This document shows, piece by piece, positions 10,319 to 43,756 of a stretch of 54,609 nt of DNA. A program made the position numbers and the translations under genes. Source of the stretch: a virus. The stretch covers positions 1 through 54,609 of the IMG/VR virus record IMGVR_UViG_3300031987_000009; one strand, written 5' to 3'. The notes below the pieces were generated by a model that worked only from the letters and a program-made list of their open reading frames with translations, was not told the origin of the DNA and made no database searches. How positions within the stretch are numbered: position 1 is the stretch's first letter; each line of letters starts with the position of its first letter.

Positions 10319-10588
10319 ATGTACGAACTTGAACTATATCTATACTTGTTTGCTAAAGAGTTAGGTTAGGATTACGAGTTCGTACTTAATATGCCTTACA
10401 AATTCTTTAGAATGTGTGTAATAGAATTACAAGAAGAAGGTAAGGCTAACAAAGCAGCATCTAACGGTAAGAAATATAATCGTAACCCACAACACGATAT
10501 ATTATTTGAAGATGATAAAAAACGTTACGATGATATGATTAAAGCACGTAGAGAAGAAATAAGACGTTCTAAGATGTCTGGACAGTGA
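10319..10588 (+). CDS. Tail assembly chaperone 2 with in-frame TAG at 10367-10369
   Basis: MYELELYLYLFAKELG[TAG]DYEFVLNMPYKFF; matches the LAKELGx...I.NMP chaperone pattern only if TAG is read through. Confidence 0.7.
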
Positions 10589-11073
10589 TTGTATTGACGC
10601 ATAGTTACGTTATAACAAGAACAGGTAACGCTTACAATACAATGCGTAGGTTTCATTTGAGTATTAATAATAATCTAAGTGAAGCGTTAAATAATGTAGG
10701 TAAGTATGCACGTTATTATTCAATGATTTCTGCACCTGTTTACAATCCTGCTAAATATCCAGACTTTTATAATTTTAAAAATCATTATACACCACCCGGT
10801 AAACTAAAGAGTTCTATACGTAAATTTAAAACCAAACGTGCCTTTGGGTTTGGTAGAGGTAACAAAGGTTTAGGTGTAGATTATTTTAGTGTACGTATAG
10901 GTTCACGTGTTAAGTATGCAAGTTATATGGAACGTGGATTTAGACATCACTTAAGCGGTAAAATAGTTAGAGGTAGACGTTTCTTACGTGGTGGTGCAAG
11001 ACTTGCTGTAAGTAGACATCATAAAATGGAGATAGAAAAGGCAGTACGTAAATCGTTCGGGAGAGTTTATTAA
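10585..11073 (+). CDS. HK97 gp10-like tail completion protein
   Basis: Basic protein with GKLKSSI and VKYASYMERG motifs. Confidence 0.7.
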   Translation: MIVLTHSYVITRTGNAYNTMRRFHLSINNNLSEALNNVGKYARYYSMISAPVYNPAKYPDFYNFKNHYTPPGKLKSSIRKFKTKRAFGFGRGNKGLGVDYFSVRIGSRVKYASYMERGFRHHLSGKIVRGRRFLRGGARLAVSRHHKMEIEKAVRKSFGRVY

Positions 11074-12773
11074 TGGCAAGTGAAACTATCACAATTCTTT
11101 TAGTATCAAATGCATCAAAGGAAGCACTTAAAATTGCTGCATCTATGAAAAGATTAGATGGTAGCATGAGCGGTGTAACCAGAGAAAGTGCTAAACAGCA
11201 AGTATCATTCGCTGGTTTGATTGCATCATATCTTGGTTTAAATAGAGCAACTCAAAGTAATACAAATGAAACACGTGAGAATACAAGAGCAAAGATGAGG
11301 AATATCGCTGCTACTGGTATTGCAGCGTTACGTAATCATTACATGGCACGTAGCAGTCATACAGCAGGTCTAAACATAGGAATGCTGTCTGTACGTATAC
11401 ACGAATGGCTTGTACCAGCGTTAGGACTTGCATACTCTGCAATGATACCAGTAATCGCTGGATTGGCTACAATAGGTGCGACTGCAATTACAGCAGCAGC
11501 AGGTTTAGTAGGTATGGCTGGTGTCGGGTTAGCAGCATGGAGTCAACAGTTAAAAGGTAAGAACCGTTTGGATATGCAGGCTAACTGGGCTTTTAGAGAT
11601 GAAGGTAACTTTGGTGATGTTGTACTTGAAGGTTTAGTAGACGCATTGCACAACCCATCTATACGTTCACGTATGGATAAAGCAGTAATGTGGACTAAAG
11701 ATATATTCCATAACATTCTACCTAACGCACTTATATCATTTGTTAAGAATGTAGATATGGGTGCAATCGGTATGATTGTAGATTTATTTAGTAAATGGCT
11801 ACCTTCTGCTATGGGTGATTTAGCAGCATGGGGTGGTCAGTTAGTTAACATATTCGGTGCACAAGCGTTAGGTATGGTCGACAGTGCTATACGTACACTT
11901 GCTGGTGCAATAACTGACTTTGCACGTTGGATGTCATCTGGTGGTTCAGAAGATGTCGTTGATTTTATGAATGTACTTGTTGAAATGCTTGGTCTCATTG
12001 GTAGGTTAGGTATGGCTACATTACCAGTGCTTAATAAGTTCTTATCTGGTATTTATCCACATCCACTTAAACCGATAGCAAATACGTTAATTGGGTTAAT
12101 GAACACACTAAATGAAAGTCCAATGGCTATGAATGCAGTACTTAAATTATCACAAGCATTGTTATATATGTTTGTTGCTAAGAAAGTAGCAGATGGAATA
12201 TTTAAACTTGCATTTTCTATTGAGAAATTATTTGGAATGTTGAATAAAATATCATTGACAGCAATTGGTAAACGTGTGTTTACAGCAGGTGCATTAAAAT
12301 TATTTGCAGCAAGTGTAGCAGGTCAGATATTCGCTGGTGTAGCAATAGGATTAGTGGGTGTAGCCGTACTTGCAAAAACTGGTATACTCAATGCTATATC
12401 TGATTTAGGTCAGGGATTTAGAGATTTCTTATCACAAGCACATATGGTACGTGATGTATTGTATTCGGTGTTTGCACCTATACTAATGTTAGGGTTATCT
12501 GCATTACGTGCTATAAGTTACATACCCGGTGTAGATGGATTAAGTTCAGAACAATATGATAGAGCAATGGGTCAAGTGTTAGGTGCACCTAAACGTTTGA
12601 TTACAGGTGGTGCTGAACACGCAAGGGAAGTAGCAGCAGGTGCTTACAGAGACAGACAAGATGTAAGCATTAACCTGACAATGGATGATGACCTTAATCT
12701 TGAAGCAGTACTTGAAGAAAAGATTAGAGATGGTAAGCGTAACAATAAAACACGTGTAACTCAGGGGTACTAA
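11073..12773 (+). CDS. Tape measure protein
   Basis: 566 aa Ala/Gly/Leu-rich helical protein with hydrophobic stretches; position after chaperones. Confidence 0.85.
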   Translation: MASETITILLVSNASKEALKIAASMKRLDGSMSGVTRESAKQQVSFAGLIASYLGLNRATQSNTNETRENTRAKMRNIAATGIAALRNHYMARSSHTAGLNIGMLSVRIHEWLVPALGLAYSAMIPVIAGLATIGATAITAAAGLVGMAGVGLAAWSQQLKGKNRLDMQANWAFRDEGNFGDVVLEGLVDALHNPSIRSRMDKAVMWTKDIFHNILPNALISFVKNVDMGAIGMIVDLFSKWLPSAMGDLAAWGGQLVNIFGAQALGMVDSAIRTLAGAITDFARWMSSGGSEDVVDFMNVLVEMLGLIGRLGMATLPVLNKFLSGIYPHPLKPIANTLIGLMNTLNESPMAMNAVLKLSQALLYMFVAKKVADGIFKLAFSIEKLFGMLNKISLTAIGKRVFTAGALKLFAASVAGQIFAGVAIGLVGVAVLAKTGILNAISDLGQGFRDFLSQAHMVRDVLYSVFAPILMLGLSALRAISYIPGVDGLSSEQYDRAMGQVLGAPKRLITGGAEHAREVAAGAYRDRQDVSINLTMDDDLNLEAVLEEKIRDGKRNNKTRVTQGY

Positions 12774-12775
12774 TC

Positions 12776-14914
12776 ATGGATGCTACTGGTATCAATCCCA
12801 AATATAAAATAAGATTATTTAATACTAAAAATAGACCAGAAGATATTACAACATCCGCTAACATACCTGCTGGTTTCGATACTAAACGTCTTGGTTGGTA
12901 TGAGTTACAACCTGAATTATCTATATTTACAGAACTTTCAATATCAAGCAGGATAGACAACGGTTCAATCGGTAACATAAGGTTTGTAGATGATTACAAA
13001 TATCTTTATACTGCTGAGATAATGTCAGGGGCATATACACGCTTAGACAGTCCAGTGAGTGTTGATACACAGCCTACGACAGATGGTTGTAAAATATTGG
13101 TTTACGTTGACGACAACGGTGACGGTACTGACTGTACAGGAACGGTGTCAATATCTGGCACTGACCTGTCTGACCAAGCGTTGTCTGAAGACATAACCAT
13201 CGGTTCTAATTCTGGTACTTACGTTAGTTCAAATACATTTAAAACCATTGATACAGACGGTATAACAATTACAGATGTTGATTCATCATGTGTAATCACA
13301 ATATTTGGTGATATAGGTACAGAAGTTAACAGACGTGAAATACAAATATTATGTGATACAAACGATGATGATGTATATGGACTAATGTTTGGTGGTTACA
13401 TAACCATTTTACCATCTGAACATAGATATAACTATACTGCTTATACTGGTAAATTGTTTGACTATACGGATTACCTTAAAAACAACGATTATACCTGTGG
13501 GTATATGTGCAAATATAGGTGTGCAAATTATTCACAGACTGGTGCAGTTGGTTCATGTTCACAAAGTAGCGATGGTGGAGAAGGACAAGCAAATTGGCAA
13601 GTCAATTGTTTCAACGGTGATTATCAACCATCGCATCCACCATTCGGTGATTTTACTATAACAGATAATGTAGGTGAACAATACGAATGTGGTGCATACA
13701 GTCAGGGTACAGAGATATTACCGTTTGATGGTTATACTTATCTCGATGATTATTACGATGATACAAGTCAATATTACAAACCACATCCATACGATTACTT
13801 TGATGCAATGTTAGCAGTAAAAGTTTATCTTAATAATATAGAAACTGATAACGTTGTATCACGTGATTACAGTTTGTTCCCATTAGATTACGGTACTATT
13901 ACTTCAGGTAACGGTACTATGCAATCAAGTGATACAAGTGTACAGATTGAGAATGCTAACGGTTTCATAATAGACGAAAGTAAAGATTATATTGCTATAT
14001 GTGAAAATGATTTAATGGAAGTTACAGCGTTCAGTGGTACTGGTACTACACGTACACTTACTGTTACAAGAGATATTAAAAACGTAATATCACAAGACCA
14101 TGACGTTGGTACAGCGATATACATACTTGAAGCAGGTAACATAACCGATGGTATGGCTGACTTAATCAATACACTTTTACCGGGTATTGTTTATACATCG
14201 ACAGTTTATCGTACTGGTAAGAGTATCGCTGAAAACTTAAGTTACAGATTTGAGAATGAAACATGTGTGTTTTGGGTAGACGATTATAAACAATTACATA
14301 TTAATGTATTCGATGGTGCTAATCCGGGTTATAGTGCTGATTTAACATTCTCTGAAACTGATAGTGATTTCCCTATACTTAAAGCATTGGATATAAGTGA
14401 ATCTAACGTAGTAAACAAAGTTGTTTCAGATGTTGATACTGGTAACAAAACTTATAGATGTCAACTTAACTCAAGTGATATATCAACAAGTTACGGTGAA
14501 TCAGTAACTTTGTTTGGTGAGCAAACAGGTGAGTTACAGTTTGAATTAGTTAATGCGGTAGGTGAAACTAATTACACCATTGGTAGAGTTGGGTTTACTT
14601 CACATGCTTTAAGGTTCTTAAAGAAAAACTCATTCCCAAGATTTAGGCAAACATTAAGATTCTTTGGATTTGTACCAGCAGAACATCAATGGGAAAACGC
14701 TTATGACCCATTGTTTAATTACACTGACAACTATAATAACCATATTGATTTACGTGGGTTAAGATGTGAAGCACCTGATTATCATTTCGATGATAAACCT
14801 ACTGAAACTTTTATAATAGAACAAGTTAAATATGTATCTAAAGGATATGGTGTACTTTATACTGATATAACGATGAGTAGATTAAGTTCACCTTCTGATT
14901 ACGGAGTGGTATAA
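12776..14914 (+). CDS. Tail tip / baseplate hub-like protein
   Basis: 712 aa after TMP; Tyr/Asp-rich, with a Cys-containing central insert. Confidence 0.6.
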   Translation: MDATGINPKYKIRLFNTKNRPEDITTSANIPAGFDTKRLGWYELQPELSIFTELSISSRIDNGSIGNIRFVDDYKYLYTAEIMSGAYTRLDSPVSVDTQPTTDGCKILVYVDDNGDGTDCTGTVSISGTDLSDQALSEDITIGSNSGTYVSSNTFKTIDTDGITITDVDSSCVITIFGDIGTEVNRREIQILCDTNDDDVYGLMFGGYITILPSEHRYNYTAYTGKLFDYTDYLKNNDYTCGYMCKYRCANYSQTGAVGSCSQSSDGGEGQANWQVNCFNGDYQPSHPPFGDFTITDNVGEQYECGAYSQGTEILPFDGYTYLDDYYDDTSQYYKPHPYDYFDAMLAVKVYLNNIETDNVVSRDYSLFPLDYGTITSGNGTMQSSDTSVQIENANGFIIDESKDYIAICENDLMEVTAFSGTGTTRTLTVTRDIKNVISQDHDVGTAIYILEAGNITDGMADLINTLLPGIVYTSTVYRTGKSIAENLSYRFENETCVFWVDDYKQLHINVFDGANPGYSADLTFSETDSDFPILKALDISESNVVNKVVSDVDTGNKTYRCQLNSSDISTSYGESVTLFGEQTGELQFELVNAVGETNYTIGRVGFTSHALRFLKKNSFPRFRQTLRFFGFVPAEHQWENAYDPLFNYTDNYNNHIDLRGLRCEAPDYHFDDKPTETFIIEQVKYVSKGYGVLYTDITMSRLSSPSDYGVV

Positions 14915-15777
14915 TGAGTTTACGAGACGCAATCGCTGATGTGTGTACAGATGTTATCAATAGTCTAAGCGTACTTAGGCTCAGACTACTCACGAGTGAC
15001 GGTGCTAAACCTTTAGTTATACGTCATCAATCAGGTGCTAAACTTGAATTAAAGAACGATGGTAAAGTGTACTATAACGGCACTGAGATTGGTACTGGTT
15101 CAGGTGGTGTCGAAGATCACGGTGCATTAACAGGGCTATTAGATGATGACCACACACAGTATTTACCAATTGATGGTAGTCGTGGTATGTCAGGTGATTT
15201 AGATATTGGTTTAGGTAACGATTTAAAGTTTGATACAAATGGATACATTGATGCAGGTGTTGACACATGGGATGAAACTCAGGTATATGGGTTAAATCTT
15301 AATGGTGATGACTTTATACGTCTATATGAATCTACATATGGACAGATTGCATTATTCGGATGGGACATTACATTCAATACATATCTTTCAATGAGTGGTA
15401 ATCAGATTATAAATGTATCAACGCCTACTGATGCAAACGATGCAGCAACCAAGAATTATGTTGACACATACACATATGACCACGGTGGACTAAGTGGGTT
15501 AGGTGATGATGACCATACACAGTATCTATTAGTCAACGGTACTCGTGTCATGTCTGGAAATATACAAATGAATGGCAACAAAATTACTAATCTTGCTACA
15601 CCGTCAAGTAACTCAGATGCCGCAACCAAAGAATATGTCGACAATAACGCTGGTGGAGATGTAACTAATCCAATGACATCTGATTTAGATACAGGTGGTT
15701 ACAAAATATATAATGACAGTGGTGCTGTTACATTTGAATCAAGTACAGGTGTATTCGTATTCCAGAAGTCACCCTGA
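14914..15777 (+). CDS. Tail fibre-like protein with internal repeats
   Basis: Two DHG(A/G)L(T/S)GLxDDDHTQY repeats and two TPxxxxDAATKxYVD repeats. Confidence 0.65.
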   Translation: MSLRDAIADVCTDVINSLSVLRLRLLTSDGAKPLVIRHQSGAKLELKNDGKVYYNGTEIGTGSGGVEDHGALTGLLDDDHTQYLPIDGSRGMSGDLDIGLGNDLKFDTNGYIDAGVDTWDETQVYGLNLNGDDFIRLYESTYGQIALFGWDITFNTYLSMSGNQIINVSTPTDANDAATKNYVDTYTYDHGGLSGLGDDDHTQYLLVNGTRVMSGNIQMNGNKITNLATPSSNSDAATKEYVDNNAGGDVTNPMTSDLDTGGYKIYNDSGAVTFESSTGVFVFQKSP

Positions 15778-15786
15778 GGTCACTAA

Positions 15787-17859
15787 ATGGTTAAAACCAA
15801 ATACATCGAAAACGATACATTTGTCGAAGGTGTATATAATCCTGACACTAACTATGAGTCATCTGAATGGGAAGAAATAACCGATTATGTTTTTGCAGGT
15901 GTTTCGGAATGTGATTCTGATAAATATTTATGTAAATTCCCTATTGACAGTGACTTTGATTCAGCAAATGATGTTAGTGCTGAACTTGTTTTCTATGTGA
16001 CAACAAATGGTGCAGGTGGTTCAGTACGTGTTTAGACTCTTGCTGATGATTACACGTTCACATCTGTAACGTATAACTCATTTGATTTCACTGGTTCTTC
16101 GGATTGGACAGCGAGATTTAATATCCCAGACACTGGTGCTACGTATGATGAACAAGTGACATGTGATATAACAAGTTCAATATTTGGAAGTCCAAGTACA
16201 AACTATGGGTACGCAGTCGATGGATACGAAGAACCATCCGGTGCAACGAACCACACATTGGGTATCCGTGCATACGAATATAGTACACGTAATCCTTATG
16301 TAAAAATAACCGAACATTCTGATTATGGATATAATTACGAATCACCTACATTTGATTGGTATGACACAATCTCTGGTATGTATTATGTAACATTATATGC
16401 ATATGTAGATATTGGTAGTACTACACAATCGGGTGATTATACCACACAGTTTGATATACGTACACCGTGGTCATCTACTGTACATACTGAATATTTAGAT
16501 GGAGGGGAAACTGTAACATATACACAATCAGGAAGTGGTTATACAGAATACTACACTGTTGAATACGTGTTTACAACTTATGATAGTGAGATTGGTTACA
16601 ATCCAGTAATGAAAGCATACTGGTATCGTGATTACGATGATTCATATGTATCATTAGACGGTGATGATGACAACAATGGTTTTGATTGGGATAACGCATA
16701 CAGAACTGTAACCAAAGGAACTGCTGAGGTTGCTGACGGTTCAACTGTTTACATAGACGAAGGTATATATGAAAGTGAAACATCACCATTTCCAAACAAT
16801 AAATCATGCAACTTTGAATTACGAAACGAAATAAATGTATATTATAGTTCAGCAGGAAACTATACCGGAAAAGCGACTGGTAGCCTGCCTTCAAAATATT
16901 TATTGCTATCGTGCAATAACCGTGTACCAGCAAAAGGTAAACTAATCAAATTACGTGTCAATGCATGGGGTTCAACTAATATAAGATTAAATGTATATAA
17001 GCAAAACAATTATGGCGATGGAATCGACCCTGATTTGTCTCTTATAGGAAACACTGGGTGGTACAATGTAGGGAACTACACGTGGTCAACACAAGAAACA
17101 ATAGATTTGACAGATGAGAACATTTATTGTGATGGTGGTGAAGTTATAGGTATATGTGTAGAACCGATTAGTTCTTCGAGTATAATGAAGACCGATTACA
17201 ATATATATGACAACTATGTTGTTTATACTGGAAATGCAGAAAACATATTTGATACTGATGTGCCAGAATCAGTTATAACAAGGAGTACAACTGGATTCCA
17301 ATATTCGGTATCAGTTGAACATGAATATTCTAAACAAATGATGATAACAGGTGAAGCATCTTACAGTTATTCTAATATTGGTTTCACTTCTTCTAATATG
17401 GGTACAGGTACATATAGTAATTCCAATAATGTTGTAGTGCTTGACAAAAATTTCGCTGTTTCATCACTACCAACAAATGAATCAAATATATTCAATTGTG
17501 CAATATTAGCAGGCAGAGGTACATCCCCTCTAACACACAGTGGTCTTTATAGGATAGTTGTAGCCAGAGATGACGGTGATAATTACTTACCTGTTTATTT
17601 AAGTGATTGGCGGTACTTATATATAAATGATGACACGGTTGAATTACATAACAAAATTAGATTGGAAAGTTTACAGCCATCTGATATATTCGGGGTTGAA
17701 ATAAAAGGCATTAGTGGAACACCAATGATTAGATTAGATACAAATGGTGGTACAGATTACTCTATTAAATACGAGGGGTCGTTCACATCATCGATACCAA
17801 AATCAAACTTTGAAGATTATGCAATATCCAAGATACCAATGAGGATGTATTACACATGA
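15787..17859 (+). CDS. Large tail/adhesin-like protein with in-frame TAG at 16033-16035
   Basis: ORF 15787..16035 and ORF 16156..17859 are in one frame separated only by TAG (SVRV[TAG]TLADDYTF); contains YVSLDGDDDNNG...AYRTVTKG beta-helix-cap-like motif. Confidence 0.75.
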
Positions 17860-18431
17860 GTTTAGAAGAATATCAGAGAAAATTAGCATACATACTTTAT
17901 CCAGATGTATTTGAAGATTTAGAGTATTACAAAAAACGTGTCATAGAATATCGTGACATCACTGATAGATACAACGAAATAATAGAAGAATATGACGAAC
18001 TACTACGATGGTTAACTTATCCAAAACAAGAAGAAGATGTCATAATTTCTAATGACGAACTTAAACAAATACTTGTTGAGCAACTTGGTGAAAATGTTAA
18101 GAGTGTAACAACAATTCCTGACAGTAAGTTTAAGTTAGTCAATAAAGAACATTTACAGCAATGGTTGTATAAAAATCCAGTTAATAAACGTAAGTATGTA
18201 CCAACATGGCATGACTGTAATACGTTTGCTACGATACTTAAAGGTGACTTGGATAAATGGGATAGTCAATTATGTACAGGCGAAGTATACGTTATAACAG
18301 AAAAAGGTAACGGACATGCTGTCAACATATTCGTTGATTTAAATAAAGATGTGTATATAATAGAACCACAAAACGATAGTATATTTAAGTTTCTTAACAA
18401 CTGGAAAGTTTATAGTAAATTAGATTTCTGA
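17856..18431 (+). CDS. Papain/transglutaminase-like cysteine peptidase with N-terminal coiled coil
   Basis: WHDCNTFA (Cys), GHAVNIF (His), IIEPQND; last gene of the late operon. Confidence 0.65.
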   Translation: MSLEEYQRKLAYILYPDVFEDLEYYKKRVIEYRDITDRYNEIIEEYDELLRWLTYPKQEEDVIISNDELKQILVEQLGENVKSVTTIPDSKFKLVNKEHLQQWLYKNPVNKRKYVPTWHDCNTFATILKGDLDKWDSQLCTGEVYVITEKGNGHAVNIFVDLNKDVYIIEPQNDSIFKFLNNWKVYSKLDF

Positions 18432-18439
18432 TAGATTAG

Positions 18440-18455
18440 TGTACATATATGTACA
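18440..18455. promoter_or_regulatory. TGTACA-N4-TGTACA palindrome
   Basis: Perfect 16-bp palindrome; same design occurs three times at 48442-48613. Confidence 0.5.
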
Positions 18456-18498
18456 TTAACGTTCAGTAATGTGTATTATAACGTTTATCTGTCTTTGA

Positions 18499-18735: not shown

Positions 18736-18745
18736 GTTTTCTTTC

Positions 18746-18761
18746 TATATAAACTTATCGC
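18746..18761 (-). promoter_or_regulatory. Archaeal BRE-TATA promoter (GCGATAAGTTTATATA on minus strand)
   Basis: Same 16-mer as 8465-8480. Confidence 0.6.
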
Positions 18762-18815
18762 CTGAAATTTGAGCATACGTTAATACCAATAGTAAACATA
18801 AGCGTATATGCCTCT

Positions 18816-34779: not shown

Positions 34780-34788
34780 TTTGTTACC

Positions 34789-36282
34789 TCATTTTGCAAA
34801 TAATTTATATACTTTGTTCTGGTCATCATAATAAATTATACCATCATCTACCATCGCTGGTATAATATCAAATGATATACCGTAATAATCTATACCATCA
34901 AGTTTATCCTGATTATCTGGATTGTTTAAAATACCGTAAGCAATCTCACTGGTATTTAAACCACCGTTATCAGAATTACTTATACAATCAATCACAAGTT
35001 CACGTATAGTTGCTTCTTTAATATTGACCTGTTTATGCTCAGACACATCATCTGTACACTCACGTATCTCATATTCTACTTCAGCATCCTTACCAAACTC
35101 AATGATGTTACTATATTCTTTACCAGTAATTACGTTTCTAACTGGACTACTGTCATGTTTGTAAATCTCATCCCAATCTACACGTACCTTTAGTATCTGT
35201 TTCTTATCGTTACCACTGTATAGATTACCTGATTCACCACCTTTACATTTAATGTAGTTTTCGTTGTACAGTTTGTCTAACCTACGACTGAGTTCAGTTT
35301 TTGTAAGTTCTGCTAAACCCATATTCTGTAAGAATCTAATTAAACTTTCAGCGTTCTGGTTAGGTTCTTTACTTAACTTTTTAAATATAGTCAAGTCAAT
35401 AATATCTATCGACATCATTGTAGCACGTAACAAATCAAACATAATCAATACGTTTGTTACATCCTGTGCATTTGCTACAAGTTTACCATCGACTGATTTA
35501 CGATTAATCCAGTTAGCACGACATGAACTCTTAATCAACGATGATATTAAACTACTATGTCGTTTACTGACAGATTTACTATGGTTAACAATATCAACCA
35601 ATGCTGTTGCAAATGGTATTGTTACTTCCATTTCAGATTGCATTAGTGAATGTATGTTATCCATAATACGTGCTTCAAGTTCTTCATCTGGTACTAACTT
35701 ATATTTAACACCCAAATACTCTACTTCATCTGCACCAAATTTGATTGCTGCTACACAACGATTGATTGTATAGTTATCCATTATTGGTATAACAAATACA
35801 CGACTTTCAAGTTCATGGTCAATCTCAACCTGTGCATACGTAGCACTATAAGGTCTTTTCTTATGTTCAATCCTCATAGTGTTACCTTTTGAAGCATTAG
35901 TTACTTCATATACAAAATCATCATCATCACCAGACAGTGATTTTAGAAACTCAATAACTGCTGGTGGTAGTTTCTGATATTCTGCAAACTGTATAAACTT
36001 GATTTTGTCATCGTTACGTAAGTCTTCTGAGTATATTGGTGCTTTATCTGAACTACTTGTGATATTAAATATACATTCATTGGGTAGCAAATATAAACCG
36101 GTACGTTGCAAATGTGTTTTACCACCGCTACTTTCACCTACTAAAAATGTAGATACATATTCTTTGGGTGAAGGTGCAAAACACGTTAGCATTGATAATA
36201 CAAATGCAAGGAATTGTTGCTCATTTCCTATGATATTATGCCTACCATACTCAATGATGTCTTCACAAAAATCACGTGTCAT
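34789..36282 (-). CDS. P-loop ATPase / putative replicative helicase with winged-helix C-terminus
   Basis: Walker A VGESSGGKT, FAEY Walker B region, ELESR arginine finger. Confidence 0.75.
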   Translation of the reverse strand: MTRDFCEDIIEYGRHNIIGNEQQFLAFVLSMLTCFAPSPKEYVSTFLVGESSGGKTHLQRTGLYLLPNECIFNITSSSDKAPIYSEDLRNDDKIKFIQFAEYQKLPPAVIEFLKSLSGDDDDFVYEVTNASKGNTMRIEHKKRPYSATYAQVEIDHELESRVFVIPIMDNYTINRCVAAIKFGADEVEYLGVKYKLVPDEELEARIMDNIHSLMQSEMEVTIPFATALVDIVNHSKSVSKRHSSLISSLIKSSCRANWINRKSVDGKLVANAQDVTNVLIMFDLLRATMMSIDIIDLTIFKKLSKEPNQNAESLIRFLQNMGLAELTKTELSRRLDKLYNENYIKCKGGESGNLYSGNDKKQILKVRVDWDEIYKHDSSPVRNVITGKEYSNIIEFGKDAEVEYEIRECTDDVSEHKQVNIKEATIRELVIDCISNSDNGGLNTSEIAYGILNNPDNQDKLDGIDYYGISFDIIPAMVDDGIIYYDDQNKVYKLFAK

Positions 36283-36308
36283 GTTTCACCTCATTCCATT
36301 AAAAAATA

Positions 36309-36330
36309 AGGGAACGTTTATTTGTTCCCT
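36309..36330 (-). terminator. Hairpin plus U-tract terminator
   Basis: AGGGAAC / GTTCCCT stem followed on the minus strand by TATTTTTT, overlapping the stop of 36318..36974. Confidence 0.55.
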
Positions 36331-36974
36331 GCTTGTTTATCTCTTGCCTGATAATATTCTTCAACTGTACTCATTGCATCGTTGGTTGTATATCCAAGAT
36401 TATCAACGAGTATCTTTGCAGCCATGAATTTATCAGTACCATCATTGTATGCATTCTGCAAGTAATAACCTGCTGTACCCTGCTGGTTAGAGTAGTTTAC
36501 AGTTGCATCAATAGATGAGTTCTCATTAGCCTGTGTCGTTGGTTCTGCATCTTCTGGCATAGGTTGTTCTGGTTGTTCTTCATATCCCCATGCAAGTACA
36601 TGATAACGTTTACCTGCTGGCTGACCTTTACCCACCCATATTGGTACACCTTCAAACTGATGTTTCAACATAAAGTAACCTGTCTCATCATCCTGATAAG
36701 TGAATGTGTCAAGGAACTGTTTGTTGAATACAGTATTTTTACCTTCTTCATCTGGTAGAGATACTCTCATAATTTTCTGTTGCTGTTCATCAATGTCAGT
36801 GAAGAACACGTTGAGATAACTACCATACATTTCGCTTACACCTGTTCTAAATGTATCAATAGTTATGTTACGTAGACGTTGGTTTACACCAAGTTTCACA
36901 ATTGGAAGTTTCTCATCTTCGGAAAGTGGTTTGCTTGTCTGTACATTGCTCATATCAAATTCTTCTACACTCAT
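36318..36974 (-). CDS. Putative ssDNA-binding / recombination protein
   Basis: OB-like beta-rich N-domain, acidic flexible linker; upstream of helicase and primase. Confidence 0.4.
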   Translation of the reverse strand: MSVEEFDMSNVQTSKPLSEDEKLPIVKLGVNQRLRNITIDTFRTGVSEMYGSYLNVFFTDIDEQQQKIMRVSLPDEEGKNTVFNKQFLDTFTYQDDETGYFMLKHQFEGVPIWVGKGQPAGKRYHVLAWGYEEQPEQPMPEDAEPTTQANENSSIDATVNYSNQQGTAGYYLQNAYNDGTDKFMAAKILVDNLGYTTNDAMSTVEEYYQARDKQAGNK

Positions 36975-37226
36975 TTATTTCATCTCCTTTACTGGTTTCT
37001 CTGGTGTAATGTATAATTCATTACTGCTACTTTTCTGGTATACAATATCAAGTTCTGTATACTCATTAATCTGTTCAATAATATAATTCATGTCATCGAC
37101 ACATCCACGTATAATCATACCGAATGTACCGTTTACATCCATGAATTTATTATCTTTAAACATCGAATTTCTCTGTTCACTCATCGTTTTCACCGTCTCC
37201 ATGTACGCTTTCAAATGCTGCATCAA
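36975..37226 (-). CDS. Hypothetical protein
   Basis: Tiled ORF. Confidence 0.5.
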   Translation of the reverse strand: MMQHLKAYMETVKTMSEQRNSMFKDNKFMDVNGTFGMIIRGCVDDMNYIIEQINEYTELDIVYQKSSSNELYITPEKPVKEMK

Positions 37227-37419
37227 TGTTCCATCCAGTTACTTCATTACATACTCGAATAAGTGCTTCTTTTGCGTCTTCTTTTGTATGTGATGAGTAA
37301 ACTATGGTTGCAGCAACCATGTTTAAGCAACTCATAATGATGTCATTGACATCCTGTCCATCCATCATTTTGTTTAACTGTTCAGTCAATTCATCTACTG
37401 CGGTTTCTTCTTCTGTCAT
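37177..37419 (-). CDS. Hypothetical protein
   Basis: 80 aa helical ORF. Confidence 0.55.
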   Translation of the reverse strand: MTEEETAVDELTEQLNKMMDGQDVNDIIMSCLNMVAATIVYSSHTKEDAKEALIRVCNEVTGWNIDAAFESVHGDGENDE

Positions 37420-37462
37420 TTTATTTACACTTCCTTATAATTAAGCATGTTTACACATGCAA

Positions 37463-37545
37463 TATGGGTGATGGGAGTCGAACCCATGAACTGCTACCAG
37501 ATATGGTCTTAAGCCATACGCATTTGACCACTTTGCTACACCCAT
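37463..37545 (-). tRNA. trnL: tRNA-Leu (anticodon UAA), no encoded CCA
   Basis: Acceptor ATGGGTG/CACCCAT, D-loop AAGTGGTCAAA, anticodon arm TATGG-CT TAA GA-CCATA, long variable arm, T arm ATGGG-TTCGACT-CCCAT. Confidence 0.93.
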
Positions 37546-37580
37546 GCTCTGTTGACGTAACTCCAAGAATGCTTCAAAAC

Positions 37581-37642
37581 TATTTAAACCTATCGCTTAA
37601 CTTCGTCTGAAATTTGTGCACGTTAAGCGATAGGTATTTATA
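37581..37642. promoter_or_regulatory. Back-to-back BRE-TATA promoters within a 14-bp inverted repeat
   Basis: ACCTATCGCTTAAC (37588-37601) / GTTAAGCGATAGGT (37622-37635), each arm followed outward by a TATA-like box; the left one sits correctly upstream of the tRNA. Confidence 0.6.
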
Positions 37643-37702
37643 GTATGATAACGTAGAGTAGTACTGTCAATGTTTGGCACTGAACACCCTAAAACAACGT
37701 TT

Positions 37703-37883
37703 GTCCAGACAGACTTAAGCATGTTTTAATATCTCGATGGTTTTGTCATAGATATATCTATCTACATCGTCATCTAATTCAAGTGCTCTTTGTATATCGC
37801 TTATACATTCATTGATTATCATTCGGTTATCTTTGTTATTCATTGTATTATCTCCATACTATCTTAGTCCAGACAGACTTAAG
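37703..37883. repeat. 17-bp direct repeats GTCCAGACAGACTTAAG flanking a small ORF
   Basis: Exact copies at 37703-37719 and 37867-37883; inverted core at 37946-37955. Confidence 0.8.
37715..37843 (-). CDS. 42-aa hypothetical protein
   Basis: GGAG RBS; MNNKDNRMIINECISDIQRALELDDDVDRYIYDKTIEILKHA. Confidence 0.55.
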   Translation of the reverse strand: MNNKDNRMIINECISDIQRALELDDDVDRYIYDKTIEILKHA

Positions 37884-38030
37884 AAGACTTAAACAAATCA
37901 AAGATACATTAAGACTATCAATAATAGCCTTAGTCTGTCTTAGTTCTGTCTGGACTTAATCAGATTTAAACTATCTTAAACTAATATTGACTATCCTAAC
38001 CTAACCCCTATAATCCCCTTCCCTTTCCTT

Positions 38031-38633
38031 TCACTTGTCGAGCCATTCATTGAGTGTTCCGTGATACTCTATTTTATCAACATATTTGCCCCATAACCAA
38101 GTTTGCAGATGCCTATATGTTATCTTCTTGCCATGACACATAATGTCATATGATATGTATTCACCATTATCAACATTAGTTATTACTAATCTACTTAGAT
38201 TATCACATGTGATAATGAATGTTTGGTCACCGTATGTCACAATCGATGTAGGTTCAATATATTTATCATGGTTTATACACATACATTGCACTTTATAATA
38301 TTGTTCAATATATAAATGATTGCAACTATGTTGAATTGTTACACATTCTTTATCTATACATAAACGCTTGAGTATATTCAGCAATTGTTTTTTTGTTAAA
38401 CCATATCTTAAAGAAATACTTGGATACATCAATGTCTTACATCTCATACACTCACCATTAGATGTATTATAAAGAATTACAGCCATTCCATCAATAGTCT
38501 CAGATTTGTATATCTCCATATTATAATAATATGGGTTATCATGTACTCTCATAGGCGTTCCAAATGGCATTTCTATTTCATCACTGTTGTCTGTAAACAC
38601 ATCTACTAATTTCATACTAATTACCTCTGTCAA
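38031..38633 (-). CDS. Hypothetical protein
   Basis: 200 aa; probable start at MKLVD. Confidence 0.6.
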   Translation of the reverse strand: MTEVISMKLVDVFTDNSDEIEMPFGTPMRVHDNPYYYNMEIYKSETIDGMAVILYNTSNGECMRCKTLMYPSISLRYGLTKKQLLNILKRLCIDKECVTIQHSCNHLYIEQYYKVQCMCINHDKYIEPTSIVTYGDQTFIITCDNLSRLVITNVDNGEYISYDIMCHGKKITYRHLQTWLWGKYVDKIEYHGTLNEWLDK

Positions 38634-38641
38634 GTCTTTGG

Positions 38642-38947
38642 TTAATGCAACTGTTCATAACATTCTTTACAATAGTTTATATCCATATATCTATCACCAA
38701 TGCATTTAAGCATTGGAACTGAACGTTCACCTTTACTAAATTTATAACCACAGTCATAGCAATATCTCTGTTTTCTTTCCGTTGGTTTTTTAACATGTAT
38801 TTCAAACGGCTCTATTATATTTTTATCTGTATCAATATACCCATTATTGACCAGTATATCTAAAATATTAGCCTGATTGATTAAATCAATGTCATCATCT
38901 TTATTTATTGTCATTAATTTCATATTAATTACCTCTAATAACGTCAT
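38642..38947 (-). CDS. Zn-finger protein
   Basis: CYDC...CKEC; probable start at MKL. Confidence 0.6.
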   Translation of the reverse strand: MTLLEVINMKLMTINKDDDIDLINQANILDILVNNGYIDTDKNIIEPFEIHVKKPTERKQRYCYDCGYKFSKGERSVPMLKCIGDRYMDINYCKECYEQLH

Positions 38948-38950
38948 ATA

Positions 38951-39030
38951 GCCTCACTGTGAAGACTTTAGTATGCTACACGACTGATAGTACCTATAAC
39001 ACACAAAGTCTTCACACAATCGATTCTGAG
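38951..39030. repeat. Palindromic intergenic element, copy C
   Basis: 12-bp IR TGTGAAGACTTT (38958-38969) / AAAGTCTTCACA (39005-39016) with internal ATAGTACCTAT identical to copy A. Confidence 0.7.
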
Positions 39031-39036
39031 CAATCC

Positions 39037-39192
39037 TCAGGCACTTGTGTAATATCCTCTATTGTATTTCAGATTATCTAACTCTTGCTTCATTTGTTTT
39101 ATAGCATCGTTACATCCAAATCCATCATCATCACATCCATAGTCTTTGAGTATGTTAATAGTCTGACTATCTAAATATACATCTTTACCCAT
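39037..39192 (-). CDS. Small hypothetical protein
   Basis: 51 aa, GAGGTGAT RBS, directly downstream of the E1 gene. Confidence 0.5.
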   Translation of the reverse strand: MGKDVYLDSQTINILKDYGCDDDGFGCNDAIKQMKQELDNLKYNRGYYTSA

Positions 39193-39203
39193 TATTCATC
39201 ACC

Positions 39204-39881
39204 TCAATACACAAATACGTTTCCATCTGCTGTTATCTCATTATGTTCTCTGTTAACTTCATATACAATAGGATATTCATAATCCATTAACCATGCTCTC
39301 ATATGTCTAATCATATCTGATGTAATATCCAATGCAATGTATATAATTGCCTTTGCAGTACATCTTGGTTGTTCCTGTTCAGATTGTGGGAAGAAGTATT
39401 GTTGATACTTGTATACTTCATCAGAATTATGAATATCAACCGTAAACACTTGGTAGTATTGACCACCTAATCTACCATCGATAATACATTTCACATCACT
39501 ACTTTTAGCATTACGTAGACACATCTCTCTACTACTAATGGTATCTGTACCTAACATCAATACATCACAATCAAACTTTGTGTCCTTGCCTACACGTTTA
39601 TTAACTGCATTGATTTTGATACCAGTACGTTCTCTCACAATTTCTTGCATAGCACATACCTTAAACATACCAATATGTCTCAAATCAAAGTTCTGGTTAG
39701 GTAGGTTATGTGCTTCAACTTTATCATCATCATATACCGTGATATTCTTAATACCCATTTGTGCAAGGTATAGTACCAAAAATGAACCTATACCACCACA
39801 TCCTACTACTGCAACATTCGTATCACTATACTTATCTGGATTAAACCATTCCATTTGTCGTGTGTATTCTATGCTTGTCAT
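39204..39881 (-). CDS. ThiF/MoeB/E1-like ubiquitin-activating enzyme
   Basis: YTRQ, VVGCGGIGS, DDDKVEAHNLPNQ, K, GTD, IIDGRLGG, and RCTAK candidate catalytic Cys. Confidence 0.93.
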   Translation of the reverse strand: MTSIEYTRQMEWFNPDKYSDTNVAVVGCGGIGSFLVLYLAQMGIKNITVYDDDKVEAHNLPNQNFDLRHIGMFKVCAMQEIVRERTGIKINAVNKRVGKDTKFDCDVLMLGTDTISSREMCLRNAKSSDVKCIIDGRLGGQYYQVFTVDIHNSDEVYKYQQYFFPQSEQEQPRCTAKAIIYIALDITSDMIRHMRAWLMDYEYPIVYEVNREHNEITADGNVFVY

Positions 39882-39890
39882 GTTATCACT

Positions 39891-40205
39891 TCATTTTATT
39901 TCTTCAATTATATGAAACAGACCAACATGGTCTCCAAAGATAGTGTGTAATCCACCCTTATTTGTACCATAATAATTCAACCATGTTGGCAAACAATCAT
40001 TTATTCGTGCTTTAACAAACTTACCATCAGATGTCATCTCTGTTGGTTCTATTTCAACAAGTTTATTGAATTCACCTGTTCTGAATGGGTTACCACCTAT
40101 CTTACCTATACATCGTTTGCCTAAGTAGTTATTCTGAAACTCAGCCATATCATTATTTGAATACGACATATCTATATCAACACTGTTTATTTCAACTACC
40201 ATCAT
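39891..40205 (-). CDS. Hypothetical protein inside the ubiquitin-like cassette
   Basis: 104 aa beta-rich; co-oriented between JAB and E1. Confidence 0.65.
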   Translation of the reverse strand: MMVVEINSVDIDMSYSNNDMAEFQNNYLGKRCIGKIGGNPFRTGEFNKLVEIEPTEMTSDGKFVKARINDCLPTWLNYYGTNKGGLHTIFGDHVGLFHIIEEIK

Positions 40206-40789
40206 TAATCCTCCATGTTATCAAGTATGTTATATGCACCTATAATCTTATCCTCAAGTATGTTACTCAACACTACAAAATCTGTCATTCTGTAACATAA
40301 TTCTTTCATTACATCAAGTGTCACTTTTGTTCTGTTGTTGTAGATACTATTGAATACTTTACACATATCAAATGAGTGATATACATTGAATTCAAATATA
40401 GATGAACCAGTCTTAATCATAAAATCAATACAGTTATTGTATGTGAATTTTATCAGTGGATTACCAACAATATCACCCATTTTAAACGAATTTCTATTAA
40501 TTGATTTAAATGGATATTGGTTAAAGTAATCAGAATCAATATCCATGTACCCATTCTCTGTTGATAGATTATTTTTATACCCAATAAATATCACTTTCAA
40601 TCTTGTATCAATGTCAAAACCATATGTTTGTAGTCCATTTAAACAATCAGTGTGTATACATGGACTGAACAGTTCATATGGTGTATATTTGCTACCGGAA
40701 TGTGTGAATGCAGATGCTTTAGCATAACTCTTAGCCTCTCTTATCTGGTTTTGAAAGAATTGTTCCATTACATCATCCATTTTAATCAC
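40205..40789 (-). CDS. Hypothetical protein inside the ubiquitin-like cassette
   Basis: 194 aa; overlaps the JAB stop. Confidence 0.65.
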   Translation of the reverse strand: MIKMDDVMEQFFQNQIREAKSYAKASAFTHSGSKYTPYELFSPCIHTDCLNGLQTYGFDIDTRLKVIFIGYKNNLSTENGYMDIDSDYFNQYPFKSINRNSFKMGDIVGNPLIKFTYNNCIDFMIKTGSSIFEFNVYHSFDMCKVFNSIYNNRTKVTLDVMKELCYRMTDFVVLSNILEDKIIGAYNILDNMED

Positions 40790-41568
40790 CTAAATTGTGA
40801 ATACATTTCAACGAAACTTTCAATGTATTCATCATAATCTTCTTCACTATAATTATGCTTATCCCAATATGCATCAATTTGTTTATCTGTCATTGATTGT
40901 GCTTGTACACCATCCCATTCAAGTACTTCACGTTTGTTACTTGATGTCAACTCAACGTTGTTGTACGTTACAGTTGTTACTTTACTTTTGCCTTTCTTTT
41001 TATAGGTAAACTTCTTCTCACGTATCACACCTTCTGTATTTAACCAATCCATAACTTTTGGACTGTACCATTCTTCAACCATGACATTTACATCATCTAT
41101 CGTTACATGTTCAGGTTCAGAAGTGAACGGTGTGTCTACCAGCATATCAACTCTACCGGTAATTTCTTTCTTTTTATTTACGCATATACTAACGTAATAA
41201 TCATTATTGTAATCCAACCATTTCTCAATGTTATCATCATCGATTGAACTGAAGTTTGTATTCATATTAACATGGCTATGTACCCAACCATTTATTGGTA
41301 CATGAACATCTCTCATCAATGCTTCCGTTAATATATCATCTGTACCATATAATCCTTCATCTTGGTTCTTATCGAAATCACATGTACCACCAGTTACTTC
41401 CTGTGATGGTATAAATATTTCGTCTACTGTAATCATACCATTATCTTTATCAATACTGCAACTCATTAGTGCACCTACTTCAAGTTTACATACACTAACC
41501 ATTGTCCATATATCTGTCCATACATCTCTTGGTATATATATTCCTACTTCCATTTTATACATCTCCAT
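40786..41568 (-). CDS. JAB/MPN+ metallo-isopeptidase
   Basis: EVGAL, PSQEVTGGTC and GWVHSHVNMNTNFSSID = HxH-x7-S-x2-D zinc motif. Confidence 0.92.
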   Translation of the reverse strand: MEMYKMEVGIYIPRDVWTDIWTMVSVCKLEVGALMSCSIDKDNGMITVDEIFIPSQEVTGGTCDFDKNQDEGLYGTDDILTEALMRDVHVPINGWVHSHVNMNTNFSSIDDDNIEKWLDYNNDYYVSICVNKKKEITGRVDMLVDTPFTSEPEHVTIDDVNVMVEEWYSPKVMDWLNTEGVIREKKFTYKKKGKSKVTTVTYNNVELTSSNKREVLEWDGVQAQSMTDKQIDAYWDKHNYSEEDYDEYIESFVEMYSQFR

Positions 41569-42474
41569 TTATATTAATTCAAGTGTTTCCATCAAATTAC
41601 GTACGTCATTATGTAATTCAATTTCATTATAGTTTATGTCTACTAACCAATCAACTATGTTCATAATCGTTGCATCAAACACGATGGTTTTGTTGTATGT
41701 ATCATGGCAAATTACTCCATCTATACAATTAAAATCACTAAGTATATCATCCAATTGTCCTTCATAACGTTCTTCTACACCATGTATCTCTGATTTAGCC
41801 CAAGGTATATCAACAGTTGCTCTACAATTACACTCAACACATGTGAAACTATCGAAATCATCACAATCTCTGCAATAACATAACAACTCAAAGCATCCAT
41901 CATGTGTACAGTGACTACATGGATTTACACTTACTGGATTATAAAATGGATTTTCTGCTGACCATTTGCTCATGAAATCACGTAACGATAACATAAACAT
42001 AATTATATCACCGCTTTCTACGTAATCATCAATGATACCAAACGAACCACCCCAACATATATCACCATCACTACTTATGTTTGGATGTACACTATGAAAC
42101 CCACAATTTAATCCATCAGTTGGTAATACTAATAATTGTCCGCCATCAAATAAGCATACCTTATATGGAACAATACTGATATTACAATCTGAGTCATATG
42201 CATCATGTTCTTCATGTACATCTTCAATTCCAGTACAATATATTTCAAAACATTTATCCTCTAAATTATAATCAACACTATTCACGAAATCAAGCATTTG
42301 TAATTCATCACACAATTCATAGAAATCTACTTTAATTTCAATTTCAAGTGAACCATGTCCTTCACGTTTGAAATCCTTTTCGGGTATGTTCATTTGCATT
42401 TGTTTTTTGTCGATGACATTGCCATCATCATCTTCAAAATGATATGTGCATAACGTATCAATTACCAATTTCAT
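41569..42474 (-). CDS. E2/UBC-fold ubiquitin-conjugating enzyme with Cys-rich C-terminal region
   Basis: HPNISSDGDICWG has the same HPN-x7-C spacing as canonical UBC active sites; followed by an 8-9 Cys cluster. Confidence 0.85.
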   Translation of the reverse strand: MKLVIDTLCTYHFEDDDGNVIDKKQMQMNIPEKDFKREGHGSLEIEIKVDFYELCDELQMLDFVNSVDYNLEDKCFEIYCTGIEDVHEEHDAYDSDCNISIVPYKVCLFDGGQLLVLPTDGLNCGFHSVHPNISSDGDICWGGSFGIIDDYVESGDIIMFMLSLRDFMSKWSAENPFYNPVSVNPCSHCTHDGCFELLCYCRDCDDFDSFTCVECNCRATVDIPWAKSEIHGVEERYEGQLDDILSDFNCIDGVICHDTYNKTIVFDATIMNIVDWLVDINYNEIELHNDVRNLMETLELI

Positions 42475-42500
42475 TTAATCATCTCCATTTAAAAATATTA

Positions 42501-42523
42501 AATGTGGGTAATTATACCCACAT
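42501..42523 (-). terminator. Hairpin downstream of the Ubl gene
   Basis: AATGTGGGT / ACCCACATT stem followed on the minus strand by an AT/T-rich run. Confidence 0.55.
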
Positions 42524-42528
42524 TTTAT

Positions 42529-42786
42529 TTATACTATGTGAACATTTGTGGACATACCACCACCAGATTTAGGTGCAGATACCATCACTGCTACTGTTTC
42601 ATCAGATACAATATCCGATGTGTTCTTTACACCATGATTTGTATTGACTGAATCAGCAGTTACATCAAATGCTGCATAGATGACATCGCCATATGTTACA
42701 TCAACTCTGTCAAGTTCTTCTTTGAGTTCATCCATGTTTACAAATTCTCTCTCGTTACCCATACCTACTCTAATTTCTGTTGCCAT
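42529..42786 (-). CDS. Ubiquitin-like (beta-grasp) protein with C-terminal extension
   Basis: 85 aa; beta-beta-alpha-beta layout ending VAVMVSAPKSGG-GMSTNVHIV; strong AAAGGAG RBS; first gene of the E2-JAB-E1 cluster. Confidence 0.75.
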   Translation of the reverse strand: MATEIRVGMGNEREFVNMDELKEELDRVDVTYGDVIYAAFDVTADSVNTNHGVKNTSDIVSDETVAVMVSAPKSGGGMSTNVHIV

Positions 42787-42887
42787 TTGTTCATTTCTCC
42801 TTTAGTTCTTATGGATAGTATACATTGGCATTAATTGTGCTAAAATCAATGCATACATACCTTTCACAAAAATAAAAGAGATGATGA

Positions 42888-43199
42888 TTAATTTTGGTAA
42901 TCATCCAATCTCAATTGTCCTTTACCAAACATTTCGTATTCACTCATTGCTACTTGTCCGATGTACTCACCGTTTTCCCATATTGGAAACCATAACCCCG
43001 GATTTAAATGTAATCGTACTATACTTGGATTTTCGCTTGCTTGTTCATTTATGTCATGCTATGTAGTCATCAATCCAGTATTACGAATGTACATAAACCT
43101 TTCATAATCACCCACTTCATCTGCTGCACGTCTACGTCTATTCATCCTATGCTAATACTGACTTTTAGTTATCAGTTTGTTTCTATCATCATCGTTCAT
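42888..43199 (-). CDS. 103-aa hypothetical protein with two in-frame TAGs (43152-43154, 43059-43061)
   Basis: MNDDDRNKLITKSQY[TAG]HRMNRRRRAADEVGDYERFMYIRNTGLMTT[TAG]HDINEQ...RLDDYQN-TAA; GAGG RBS; fills an otherwise empty gap and is followed by a T tract. Confidence 0.65.
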
Positions 43200-43234
43200 T
43201 TTATCAAATCCTCATGTTTTAGAAAGTCTATCCA

Positions 43235-43756
43235 TCAATTCCTTGTTTGTTCATTATTAGTTTCCTTTTCTTTTTCTTTGATTTTTTTTACACACTGTTC
43301 CTATGTTTCGCATAGTTCTGTTCCCCTCTGAATTCTGCCTGTTCCACCTCCATTAGGCGTACAATGAAATATAATTGATGTCCCATCCTTGGATTGTGTG
43401 CTAACTATTTTGGATATTTTTGCTCTTCTTGGTACATCATATGTACTGGGAATTGTACCAGATATACATTTGGGACATCGCAGGTATTCATCTATCCCCT
43501 CCGCCTTTACCTTGCCTGTGCCGTTACAGAAGGGACACATTTGTCTGTCCTCTGTTTCAACCGGTATCCATACTTCCTGTCCAATACTGTAATTTCTAAA
43601 TAAATCTTTGATGACTTCCTCTTTAGCATCTTTCATAGACACATGTTTTGAAGTATCTTTTTTCAATTCATGAAGTTCTTTTGACAGTTCATCACACAGT
43701 GTAAGTACATCTTCCATCGCCACTATTGCTCTGTTAAGTCGTTTATCTATTCCCAT
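43235..43756 (-). CDS. DnaJ-type Zn-finger-containing protein with in-frame TAG at 43301-43303
   Basis: CPFCNGTG...CPKCISG; LCET[TAG]EQCVKKIKEKE continues to TGA at 43235. Confidence 0.6.

What the first reader, a model, noticed from the sequence alone, without database searches (positions are those of the whole stretch)
10319..43756. Genome-wide use of TAG as a rare sense codon (probable pyrrolysine code) in a virus
Seen: eight in-frame TAGs in seven genes (10367, 16033, 22535, 30075, 33249, 43059, 43152, 43301). In each case the frame continues to a TAA/TGA, often restoring a domain or the gene overlaps typical of this genome. Every other gene I accepted ends in TAA or TGA, so TAG is apparently never a real stop. 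The TAGs occur in both structural and replication genes and are very rare, unlike TAG-to-Gln recoded bacteriophages where they are abundant. No CUA-anticodon tRNA or pyl gene is visible, so decoding must be host-supplied. Established: Methanosarcinales and Methanomassiliicoccales decode UAG as pyrrolysine via PylRS/tRNA-Pyl. Inference: the virus is adapted to a Pyl-code host and places Pyl in non-methyltransferase proteins, which could restrict host range or tie replication to the host Pyl supply.
Basis: partly seen in the sequence, partly recalled or inferred. Interest (0 to 1): 0.92.

Follow-up and report, generated by a model that had tools for sequence, protein, structure and literature searches.

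The report
Methanogen virus written in pyrrolysine code
A tailed virus of the salt-loving methanogen Methanohalophilus never ends a gene with the stop codon TAG but has it inside seven genes, including its DNA primase, so it almost certainly relies on its host to read TAG as the rare 22nd amino acid, pyrrolysine.

Summary
Observation confirmed. All eight TAGs are present, in frame, in seven of 98 genes; the genes end in TGA (53) or TAA (45). Seven of the eight recur in other assemblies, so they are not errors. Homologues or strain alleles run through seven, with unlike residues at the site (Lys, Gln, Trp/Ser, Asn/Tyr, Val/Met/Ala/Ile), so no single standard amino acid fits. The primase TAG splits the PriL Fe-S domain and sits at the same codon in a second virus (47% identical). 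Host found: 41 CRISPR spacers (20 perfect, with PAMs) from one Methanohalophilus (euhalobius-type) genome with complete pylTSBCD that itself ends only 2.3% of ORFs in TAG. The virus has no pyl genes. Best reading: a virus using its host's pyrrolysine code (Code 34-like), most sites tolerated substitutions. Pyrrolysine itself is inferred, not measured. Host-range restriction or regulation is untested; two sites are polymorphic. No virus with this code turned up in the papers I could search; this scan noted similar patterns in other genomes.

The parts
1..54609 (.). Circular (55-nt terminal overlap) tailed archaeal virus genome, 34.5% GC; 98 called genes, all ending TAA/TGA when TAG is read as sense
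   Evidence: IMG/VR class 'direct terminal repeats'
10319..10588 (+). Tail-chaperone T-like gene (89 aa, own SD and ATG; sits between a weak TAC match and neck/tape-measure genes); TAG at codon 17 (10367-10369). Homologues have Trp (SBSPR1A virus) or Ser (L287)
   Evidence: chaperone identity rests on synteny and weak Pfam hits
15787..17859 (+). Tail/virion protein (690 aa); TAG at codon 83 (16033-16035) inside an N-terminal CBM96-like domain. Homologues P0055 and P0056 are continuous, with Asn and Tyr
22472..22627 (-). Small unknown gene (51 aa); TAG at codon 31 (22535-22537). Weakest case: no homologue outside the species, TAG kept in 3/3 strains
29991..30575 (-). Holliday-junction-resolvase-like nuclease (194 aa); TAG at codon 167 (30075-30077). 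The PHROG match (88-186) spans it; homologue P0058 (67% identical, full length) has Lys
32976..33974 (-). Fused AEP + PriL-type Fe-S primase (332 aa from ATG 33974); TAG at codon 242 (33249-33251), five codons after the first of four conserved Cys. Same codon is TAG in virus L005 (47% identical); other homologues have Val/Met/Ala/Ile
42888..43199 (-). Early unknown gene (103 aa) with two TAGs: codon 16 (43152-43154, fixed in 7/7 strains) and codon 47 (43059-43061, TAG/CAG polymorphic)
43235..43756 (-). Zn-ribbon protein (173 aa); TAG at codon 152 (43301-43303) inside a conserved C-terminal motif. AAG (Lys) in four other strains with the same TGA end
37463..37545 (-). tRNA-Leu(TAA), the only tRNA; not an amber suppressor
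43052..43089 (-). Protospacer matched with 0 mismatches by a host spacer and containing TAG 43059; one of 41 protospacers across the genome

Best explanation
This is a tailed dsDNA virus of a Methanohalophilus (euhalobius-type) host, written in the host's pyrrolysine code. The host constitutively makes Pyl and charges tRNA-Pyl(CUA), and has largely purged TAG as a stop. In that cell TAG is an unreliable terminator, so the virus uses only TAA/TGA as stops, while point mutations that create an internal TAG (from AAG, CAG, TGG, TAY, TCG) give a full-length protein with Pyl and can persist. Shown: the TAGs, the open frames and homology across them, the host link, the host's pylTSBCD, no decoding genes in the virus. 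Inferred: that the residue is Pyl, that read-through is efficient, and that most sites are tolerated rather than selected. Consequence (inferred): full-length primase, tail chaperone and tail protein now depend on host Pyl decoding.
For: Homology or strain alleles continue across 7 of 8 TAGs. Primase identity to L005 is 46% before and 52% after the TAG, and strain variation after it is 5 synonymous to 1 non-synonymous. 41 of 189 spacers of G050 match at <=5 mismatches, 20 perfectly; 20/21 in the type I-B array have a CCA/CCT flank and 12/15 in a second array a TAA flank. In the 1-19,000 search only this genome, of 177 Methanosarcinaceae, had several spacer-sized hits. Its PylS is identical to Methanohalophilus entries; PylB/C/D pass NCBIfam cut-offs; a pylT-like tRNA with CUA anticodon lies upstream. 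Host: 18/769 code-11 ORFs end in TAG and many of these read on. Residues aligned to the TAGs are mixed (K, Q, K, W/S, N/Y, V/M/A/I). No shared downstream hairpin (z from -1.6 to +1.75). Methanohalophilus is among the eight genera with many internal TAGs in 10.1101/2024.09.30.615893.
Against: No peptide evidence. In Methanosarcina acetivorans UAG is read both as stop and as Pyl (PMC12626013), so truncated forms may also be made. The 22535 gene has no outside homologue. Internal TAG density is about 3 times the host's (4.4 vs 1.5 per 10,000 codons, p about 0.02, rough caller) and the primase TAG is shared by two distant viruses, which pure drift explains less comfortably. pyl genes and CRISPR arrays lie on different contigs of the host assembly.
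Confidence: 0.75

Rival explanations
1. TAG is read as Pyl, but some sites are kept by selection: partial read-through sets the amount of full-length primase or tail chaperone according to host Pyl supply, or Pyl has a role at the site, or the codons act as a host-range lock.
For: The primase TAG is at the same codon in two viruses only 47% identical, with 82/147 shared residues using different codons, and it separates the catalytic AEP part from three of four Fe-S cysteines. TAG 10367 replaces a Trp in a gene whose product is normally made in small amounts (established for lambda gpGT); here no slippery site joins it to the upstream chaperone. Five sites are fixed in all strains seen. Read-through varies with substrate in M. 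acetivorans by model estimate (PMC12626013).
Against: With 46-52% identity, keeping one ancestral codon is what an average site does. Homologues work with V/M/A/I or W/S at these places. Two sites are polymorphic. No shared RNA signal.
Confidence: 0.15
2. TAG is read as a standard amino acid (Gln, Tyr, Trp, Lys) by a suppressor tRNA, as in code-15 bacteriophages.
For: One allele pair is TAG/CAG and two sites align to Lys.
Against: No CUA tRNA in the virus. TAG is very rare (8 in 16,369 codons). Aligned residues differ from site to site. The spacer-linked host has the Pyl system.
Confidence: 0.04
3. The TAGs are true stops: nonsense alleles or split genes whose downstream halves are dead or restart separately.
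For: Code-11 callers find downstream restarts for the primase, tail and chaperone genes. A sister virus ends several genes in TAG.
Against: The breaks fall inside domains (CBM96, PriL Fe-S, resolvase motif). The next ATG in the primase lies after the second cysteine. Downstream sequence is conserved. All breaks are TAG and none TAA/TGA. The alleles occur in many samples.
Confidence: 0.05
4. Sequencing or assembly errors.
For: Raw reads were not examined. TAG 16033 and 43301 were not seen as TAG in a clearly independent sample.
Against: Six TAGs recur in 3-7 assemblies of diverged strains; one lies inside a perfectly matching host spacer.
Confidence: 0.01

Closest known systems
Genetic Code 34: genome-wide TAG = pyrrolysine in archaea (Kivenson et al., 10.1101/2024.09.30.615893; Science 2025)
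   Same: Rare internal TAGs in ordinary proteins, homology on both sides, no large out-of-frame overlaps, no PYLIS, only TAA/TGA as stops; Methanohalophilus is one of the listed genera; predicted Pyl in mobile elements (transposases, casposon).
   Different: Here the genome is a virus with no pyl genes, relying on the host. The preprint does not mention viruses (0 hits for virus/viral/provirus); the journal version could not be read. No proteomics here.
Ambiguous amber decoding in Methanosarcina acetivorans (PMC12626013)
   Same: Pyl insertion without a sequence signal; TAG use lowered genome-wide.
   Different: There UAG gives both stop and Pyl; the efficiency in Methanohalophilus, and on viral mRNA, is unknown.
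TAG-recoded (code 15, TAG = Gln) bacteriophages such as crAss-like and Lak phages (from my own knowledge)
   Same: A tailed virus with in-frame TAG as sense.
   Different: Those differ from their host's code, use TAG abundantly, often carry a CUA tRNA, and TAG aligns to Gln. Here the virus matches its host, TAG is 0.05% of codons, there is no suppressor tRNA, and aligned residues are mixed.
Related Methanosarcinaceae-associated viruses (SBSPR1A contig JAIPUR010000020.1, L001, L005, L015)
   Same: Shared gene order and 30-65% identical core proteins.
   Different: The SBSPR1A-binned virus ends 6/68 genes in TAG, mostly with short or non-coding extensions, and has Trp/Ala at the sites; L005 shares the primase TAG. 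TAG use therefore varies within the group.

Membership tests
Genetic Code 34 (TAG = Pyl) genome | Most TAGs are internal, with homology before and after and >15 aa extension (Category 1) | tested here: met
   6 of 7 genes have homologues or alleles spanning a TAG; all extensions >=20 aa
Genetic Code 34 (TAG = Pyl) genome | Few or no cases where read-through gives a >60-nt out-of-frame overlap (Category 4) | tested here: met
   Overlaps after read-through are 0-23 nt
Genetic Code 34 (TAG = Pyl) genome | Pyl machinery (pylTSBCD) available | tested here: met
   Absent from the virus, complete in the spacer-linked host G050
Genetic Code 34 (TAG = Pyl) genome | Pyl detected at TAG positions by proteomics | not testable with these tools
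   No proteomic data
Genetic Code 34 (TAG = Pyl) genome | TAG never acts as a stop in vivo | tested here: inconclusive
   No called gene ends in TAG and 293 strain-variant gene ends are all TAA/TGA; but a strain-specific gene in L226/L227 has TAG two codons before its end, and partial termination cannot be seen in DNA
Code-15 (TAG = Gln) recoded phages | Abundant in-frame TAG aligning to Gln | tested here: not met
   8 in 16,369 codons; one site pairs with Gln, the rest with K, W/S, N/Y, V/M/A/I
Code-15 (TAG = Gln) recoded phages | Virus-encoded CUA suppressor tRNA, code differs from host | tested here: not met
   Only tRNA-Leu(TAA); TAG pattern resembles the host's
Signal-dependent recoding (PYLIS-like hairpin) | Common stable hairpin just downstream of UAG | tested here: not met
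   z-scores -1.6 to +1.75, no shared fold
Tailed archaeal virus (Caudoviricetes) of Methanohalophilus | Terminase, portal, capsid and tail genes, plus host link by spacers with PAM | tested here: met
   (capsid hit weak); 41 spacers, 20 perfect, PAM-consistent

The most novel reading that the evidence does not exclude
The amber codons in the primase and tail-chaperone genes are kept by selection as a translational switch: the ratio of truncated to full-length protein tracks the host's pyrrolysine supply (and so its methylamine metabolism), letting the virus time replication and assembly to host state and confining it to efficient Pyl decoders.
Probability: 0.15. Interest if true: 0.85.

Novelty: new variant of a known kind. 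Interest (0 to 1): 0.58.

Why it matters
It extends the archaeal pyrrolysine code from cells and their mobile elements to a virus with a firm host link, and predicts the 22nd amino acid in virion and replication proteins. It gives a concrete system, in a cultured host genus, for the open question of whether UAG is fully reassigned or ambiguous in Pyl archaea, since essential viral genes appear to need read-through. It also shows that standard annotation splits these genes (database entries P0007, P0012, P0054, P0057 are truncated), and that stop-codon pattern can help assign hosts to methanogen viruses. The finding is an expected consequence of host Code 34 unless selection on the TAGs is shown.

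Tried and rejected
Single-sequence primase scan of IMG/VR found nothing; the terminase scan gave only about 25%-identical phages. An apparent TAT-to-TAG allele in thymidylate synthase was a gapped-alignment artefact; the gene is intact. Extra true TAG alleles (40205-40780 codon 98; 27438-27566 codon 23) against no TAA/TGA nonsense alleles give only p about 0.08, so I do not lean on it. A bacterial-phage control for TAG stop share failed: one locus passed the GC filter. PYLIS-like hairpin not found. Foldseek matched only the AEP half of the primase model, not the C-terminal domain; PriL identity rests on a sub-threshold Pfam hit (E 0.0012) and four invariant cysteines. The idea that amber read-through replaces the G/GT frameshift fusion is rejected in that form: the upstream chaperone ends in TAA and the TAG lies 17 codons into a separately started gene. 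G050 spacers do not hit L005, L218 or the SBSPR1A virus, so their hosts are unassigned. No other Methanohalophilus genome (10 more) had spacers in 38-54.6 kb. Six literature searches found no virus with Pyl codons.

Full report
What the window is. The 54,609-bp sequence is a whole circular virus contig (55-nt terminal overlap; 34.5% GC). It has terminase, portal, neck, tape-measure and tail genes on the plus strand and replication genes (primase, ribonucleotide reductase, thymidylate synthase, dUTPase, two DNA methylases) on the minus strand. The best terminase hits among described phages are haloarchaeal HF1-like viruses at 25%. The full-length primase relatives in GTDB genomes are led by Methanosarcinaceae and Methanolobus contigs.

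Observation. All eight TAGs are at the stated places. Calling genes with only TAA/TGA as stops gives 98 genes (53 TGA, 45 TAA) and exactly these eight internal TAGs in seven genes. Every extension is at least 20 codons and no read-through creates an overlap above 23 nt. The two TAG-ended ORFs that a standard caller might accept score as non-coding. The only tRNA is Leu(TAA), and host pylT and PylS/B/C/D find no match in the virus.

Not artefacts. Strain assemblies from other sequencing runs carry TAG at 10367 (7/7), 22535 (3/3), 30075 (5/5), 33249 (7/7) and 43152 (7/7). Site 43059 is TAG in 3 and CAG in 4; site 43301 is AAG in all 4 other strains, with the same downstream TGA. All 293 gene ends seen in these strains are TAA or TGA. 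One host spacer matches the stretch with TAG 43059 perfectly. Site 16033 was seen only in a possibly identical sample. Raw reads could not be examined.

The frames are real proteins across the TAG. Primase: four homologues of 330-341 aa continue through the site with Val, Met, Met, Ala, others with Ile. The TAG lies five codons after the first of four invariant cysteines of a PriL-like C-terminal domain, at the end of its first helix in the model. A second virus (L005, 47% identical) has TAG at the same codon and the same continuation; identity is 46% before and 52% after the site. Tail protein: a CBM96-like domain spans residues 7-132 and two homologues are continuous with Asn and Tyr. Resolvase-like gene: a 67%-identical full-length homologue has Lys. 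Chaperone-like gene: Trp and Ser in two related viruses. Zn-ribbon gene: the TAG is inside a conserved terminal motif. The 51-aa gene at 22472-22627 has no outside homologue and is the weakest case. The mix of residues argues against any single standard amino acid. Lys, Gln, Trp, Tyr and Ser codons are each one base from TAG.

Host. A search of 177 Methanosarcinaceae genomes with bases 1-19,000 found one, G050, with clustered short matches, and many more in the rest of the virus. Parsing its arrays gave 41 of 189 spacers within 5 mismatches, 20 perfect, in four arrays on three contigs. In the type I-B array 20 of 21 protospacers have a CCA/CCT flank; in a second array 12 of 15 have a TAA flank. 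G050's PylS is letter-for-letter a Methanohalophilus sequence, listed for M. euhalobius. PylB, PylC and PylD follow it and a pylT-like tRNA with a CUA anticodon precedes it. In 780 kb of the host, 18 of 769 code-11 ORFs (2.3%) end in TAG and many read on with coding-like sequence, including methylamine methyltransferase-like genes and several housekeeping-type genes (those labels are my recognition of motifs, not tool-tested). Kivenson et al. list Methanohalophilus among eight genera with many internal TAGs.

How it most likely works. The host supplies Pyl-tRNA(CUA). TAG is then a poor stop, so the virus, like the host, ends genes in TAA/TGA. Mutations that create an internal TAG give Pyl-containing full-length proteins and are tolerated; two still segregate. 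No shared RNA signal follows the TAGs, in line with signal-free Pyl insertion. That the residue is Pyl is inference from the host link (my estimate about 0.9); efficiency is unknown, and M. acetivorans reads UAG both ways (PMC12626013). The lack of TAG stops is significant against a sister virus that ends 6/68 genes in TAG (P about 2e-4) but not against the host's own rate (P about 0.12). Internal TAG density is about three times the host's (p about 0.02, rough). The shared primase TAG shows common ancestry and long tolerance; at about 50% identity it does not by itself show selection.

Comparison and novelty. The genome meets the sequence criteria of Genetic Code 34, with the machinery provided by the host; the proteomic criterion could not be tested. 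It fails the features of TAG-to-Gln phages. The Code 34 preprint predicts Pyl in transposases and a casposon but does not mention viruses; the Science version was not available, and six searches found no report of a Pyl-coded virus. This scan has unchecked notes of the same pattern in other viral genomes, which I treat as leads only. Verdict: real, well supported, a new variant of a known kind. Interest 0.58: an expected consequence of the host code, but with an unusually strong host link and apparently essential genes that make the stop-versus-Pyl question directly testable.

Noticed in passing
window 39204-42474 (-): ThiF/E1-like gene, JAB-like gene and an unknown 301-aa gene cluster, shared with related viruses L001 and L003/SBSPR1A; possibly a ubiquitin-like conjugation module.
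   Followed up: no
window 19484-20314 and 29239-29994 (-): A C5 cytosine methylase and an N6/N4 methylase, probably protection against host restriction.
   Followed up: no
window 37628-37687 and 49363-49421: A 60-bp, 83%-identical repeat on opposite strands in two non-coding gaps, with a TATA-like box; candidate shared promoter or regulatory element.
   Followed up: no
window 38000-54609: About three quarters of the host spacers target this 30% of the genome (early/variable region), which may reflect injection order or primed acquisition.
   Followed up: no
window 40205-40780 and 27438-27566 (alleles in L226, L229, L242): Further in-frame TAG alleles in other strains (TCG to TAG at codon 98; TGG to TAG at codon 23), with no ungapped TAA/TGA nonsense alleles among 914 variant codons.
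   Followed up: partly
G001:C12 19709-20779 (-) (L174/L175): In the SBSPR1A-binned virus, reading through the TAG that ends the HD gene fuses it in frame to the next gene (methylase-like by eye); L001 has two similar in-frame junctions. Could be true stops or read-through fusions.
   Followed up: no
L218 (RWII01000001.1, 56.5 kb): A different tailed virus deposited as a Methanohalophilus MAG contig; shares the tail-protein module, and none of 28 called genes in 21 kb ends in TAG.
   Followed up: partly
G001:C12 (JAIPUR010000020.1, 46.7 kb): This contig of the Methanosarcinaceae SBSPR1A MAG is wholly a related virus, with no host genes seen at its ends; its host is by binning only.
   Followed up: partly
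G050:C7 5689-6870 (L198): Host pylB ends in an in-frame TAG, as reported for PylB elsewhere (PMC12626013).
   Followed up: no
L223:2033-3562: Database protein P0055 was called with TGA = Trp; the gene really ends at the first TGA, matching its homologue's length.
   Followed up: yes
window 47753-49503 and 46662-46759: A 1.75-kb gap without called genes between the divergent gene blocks and an imperfect inverted repeat nearby; candidate origin or control region.
   Followed up: no
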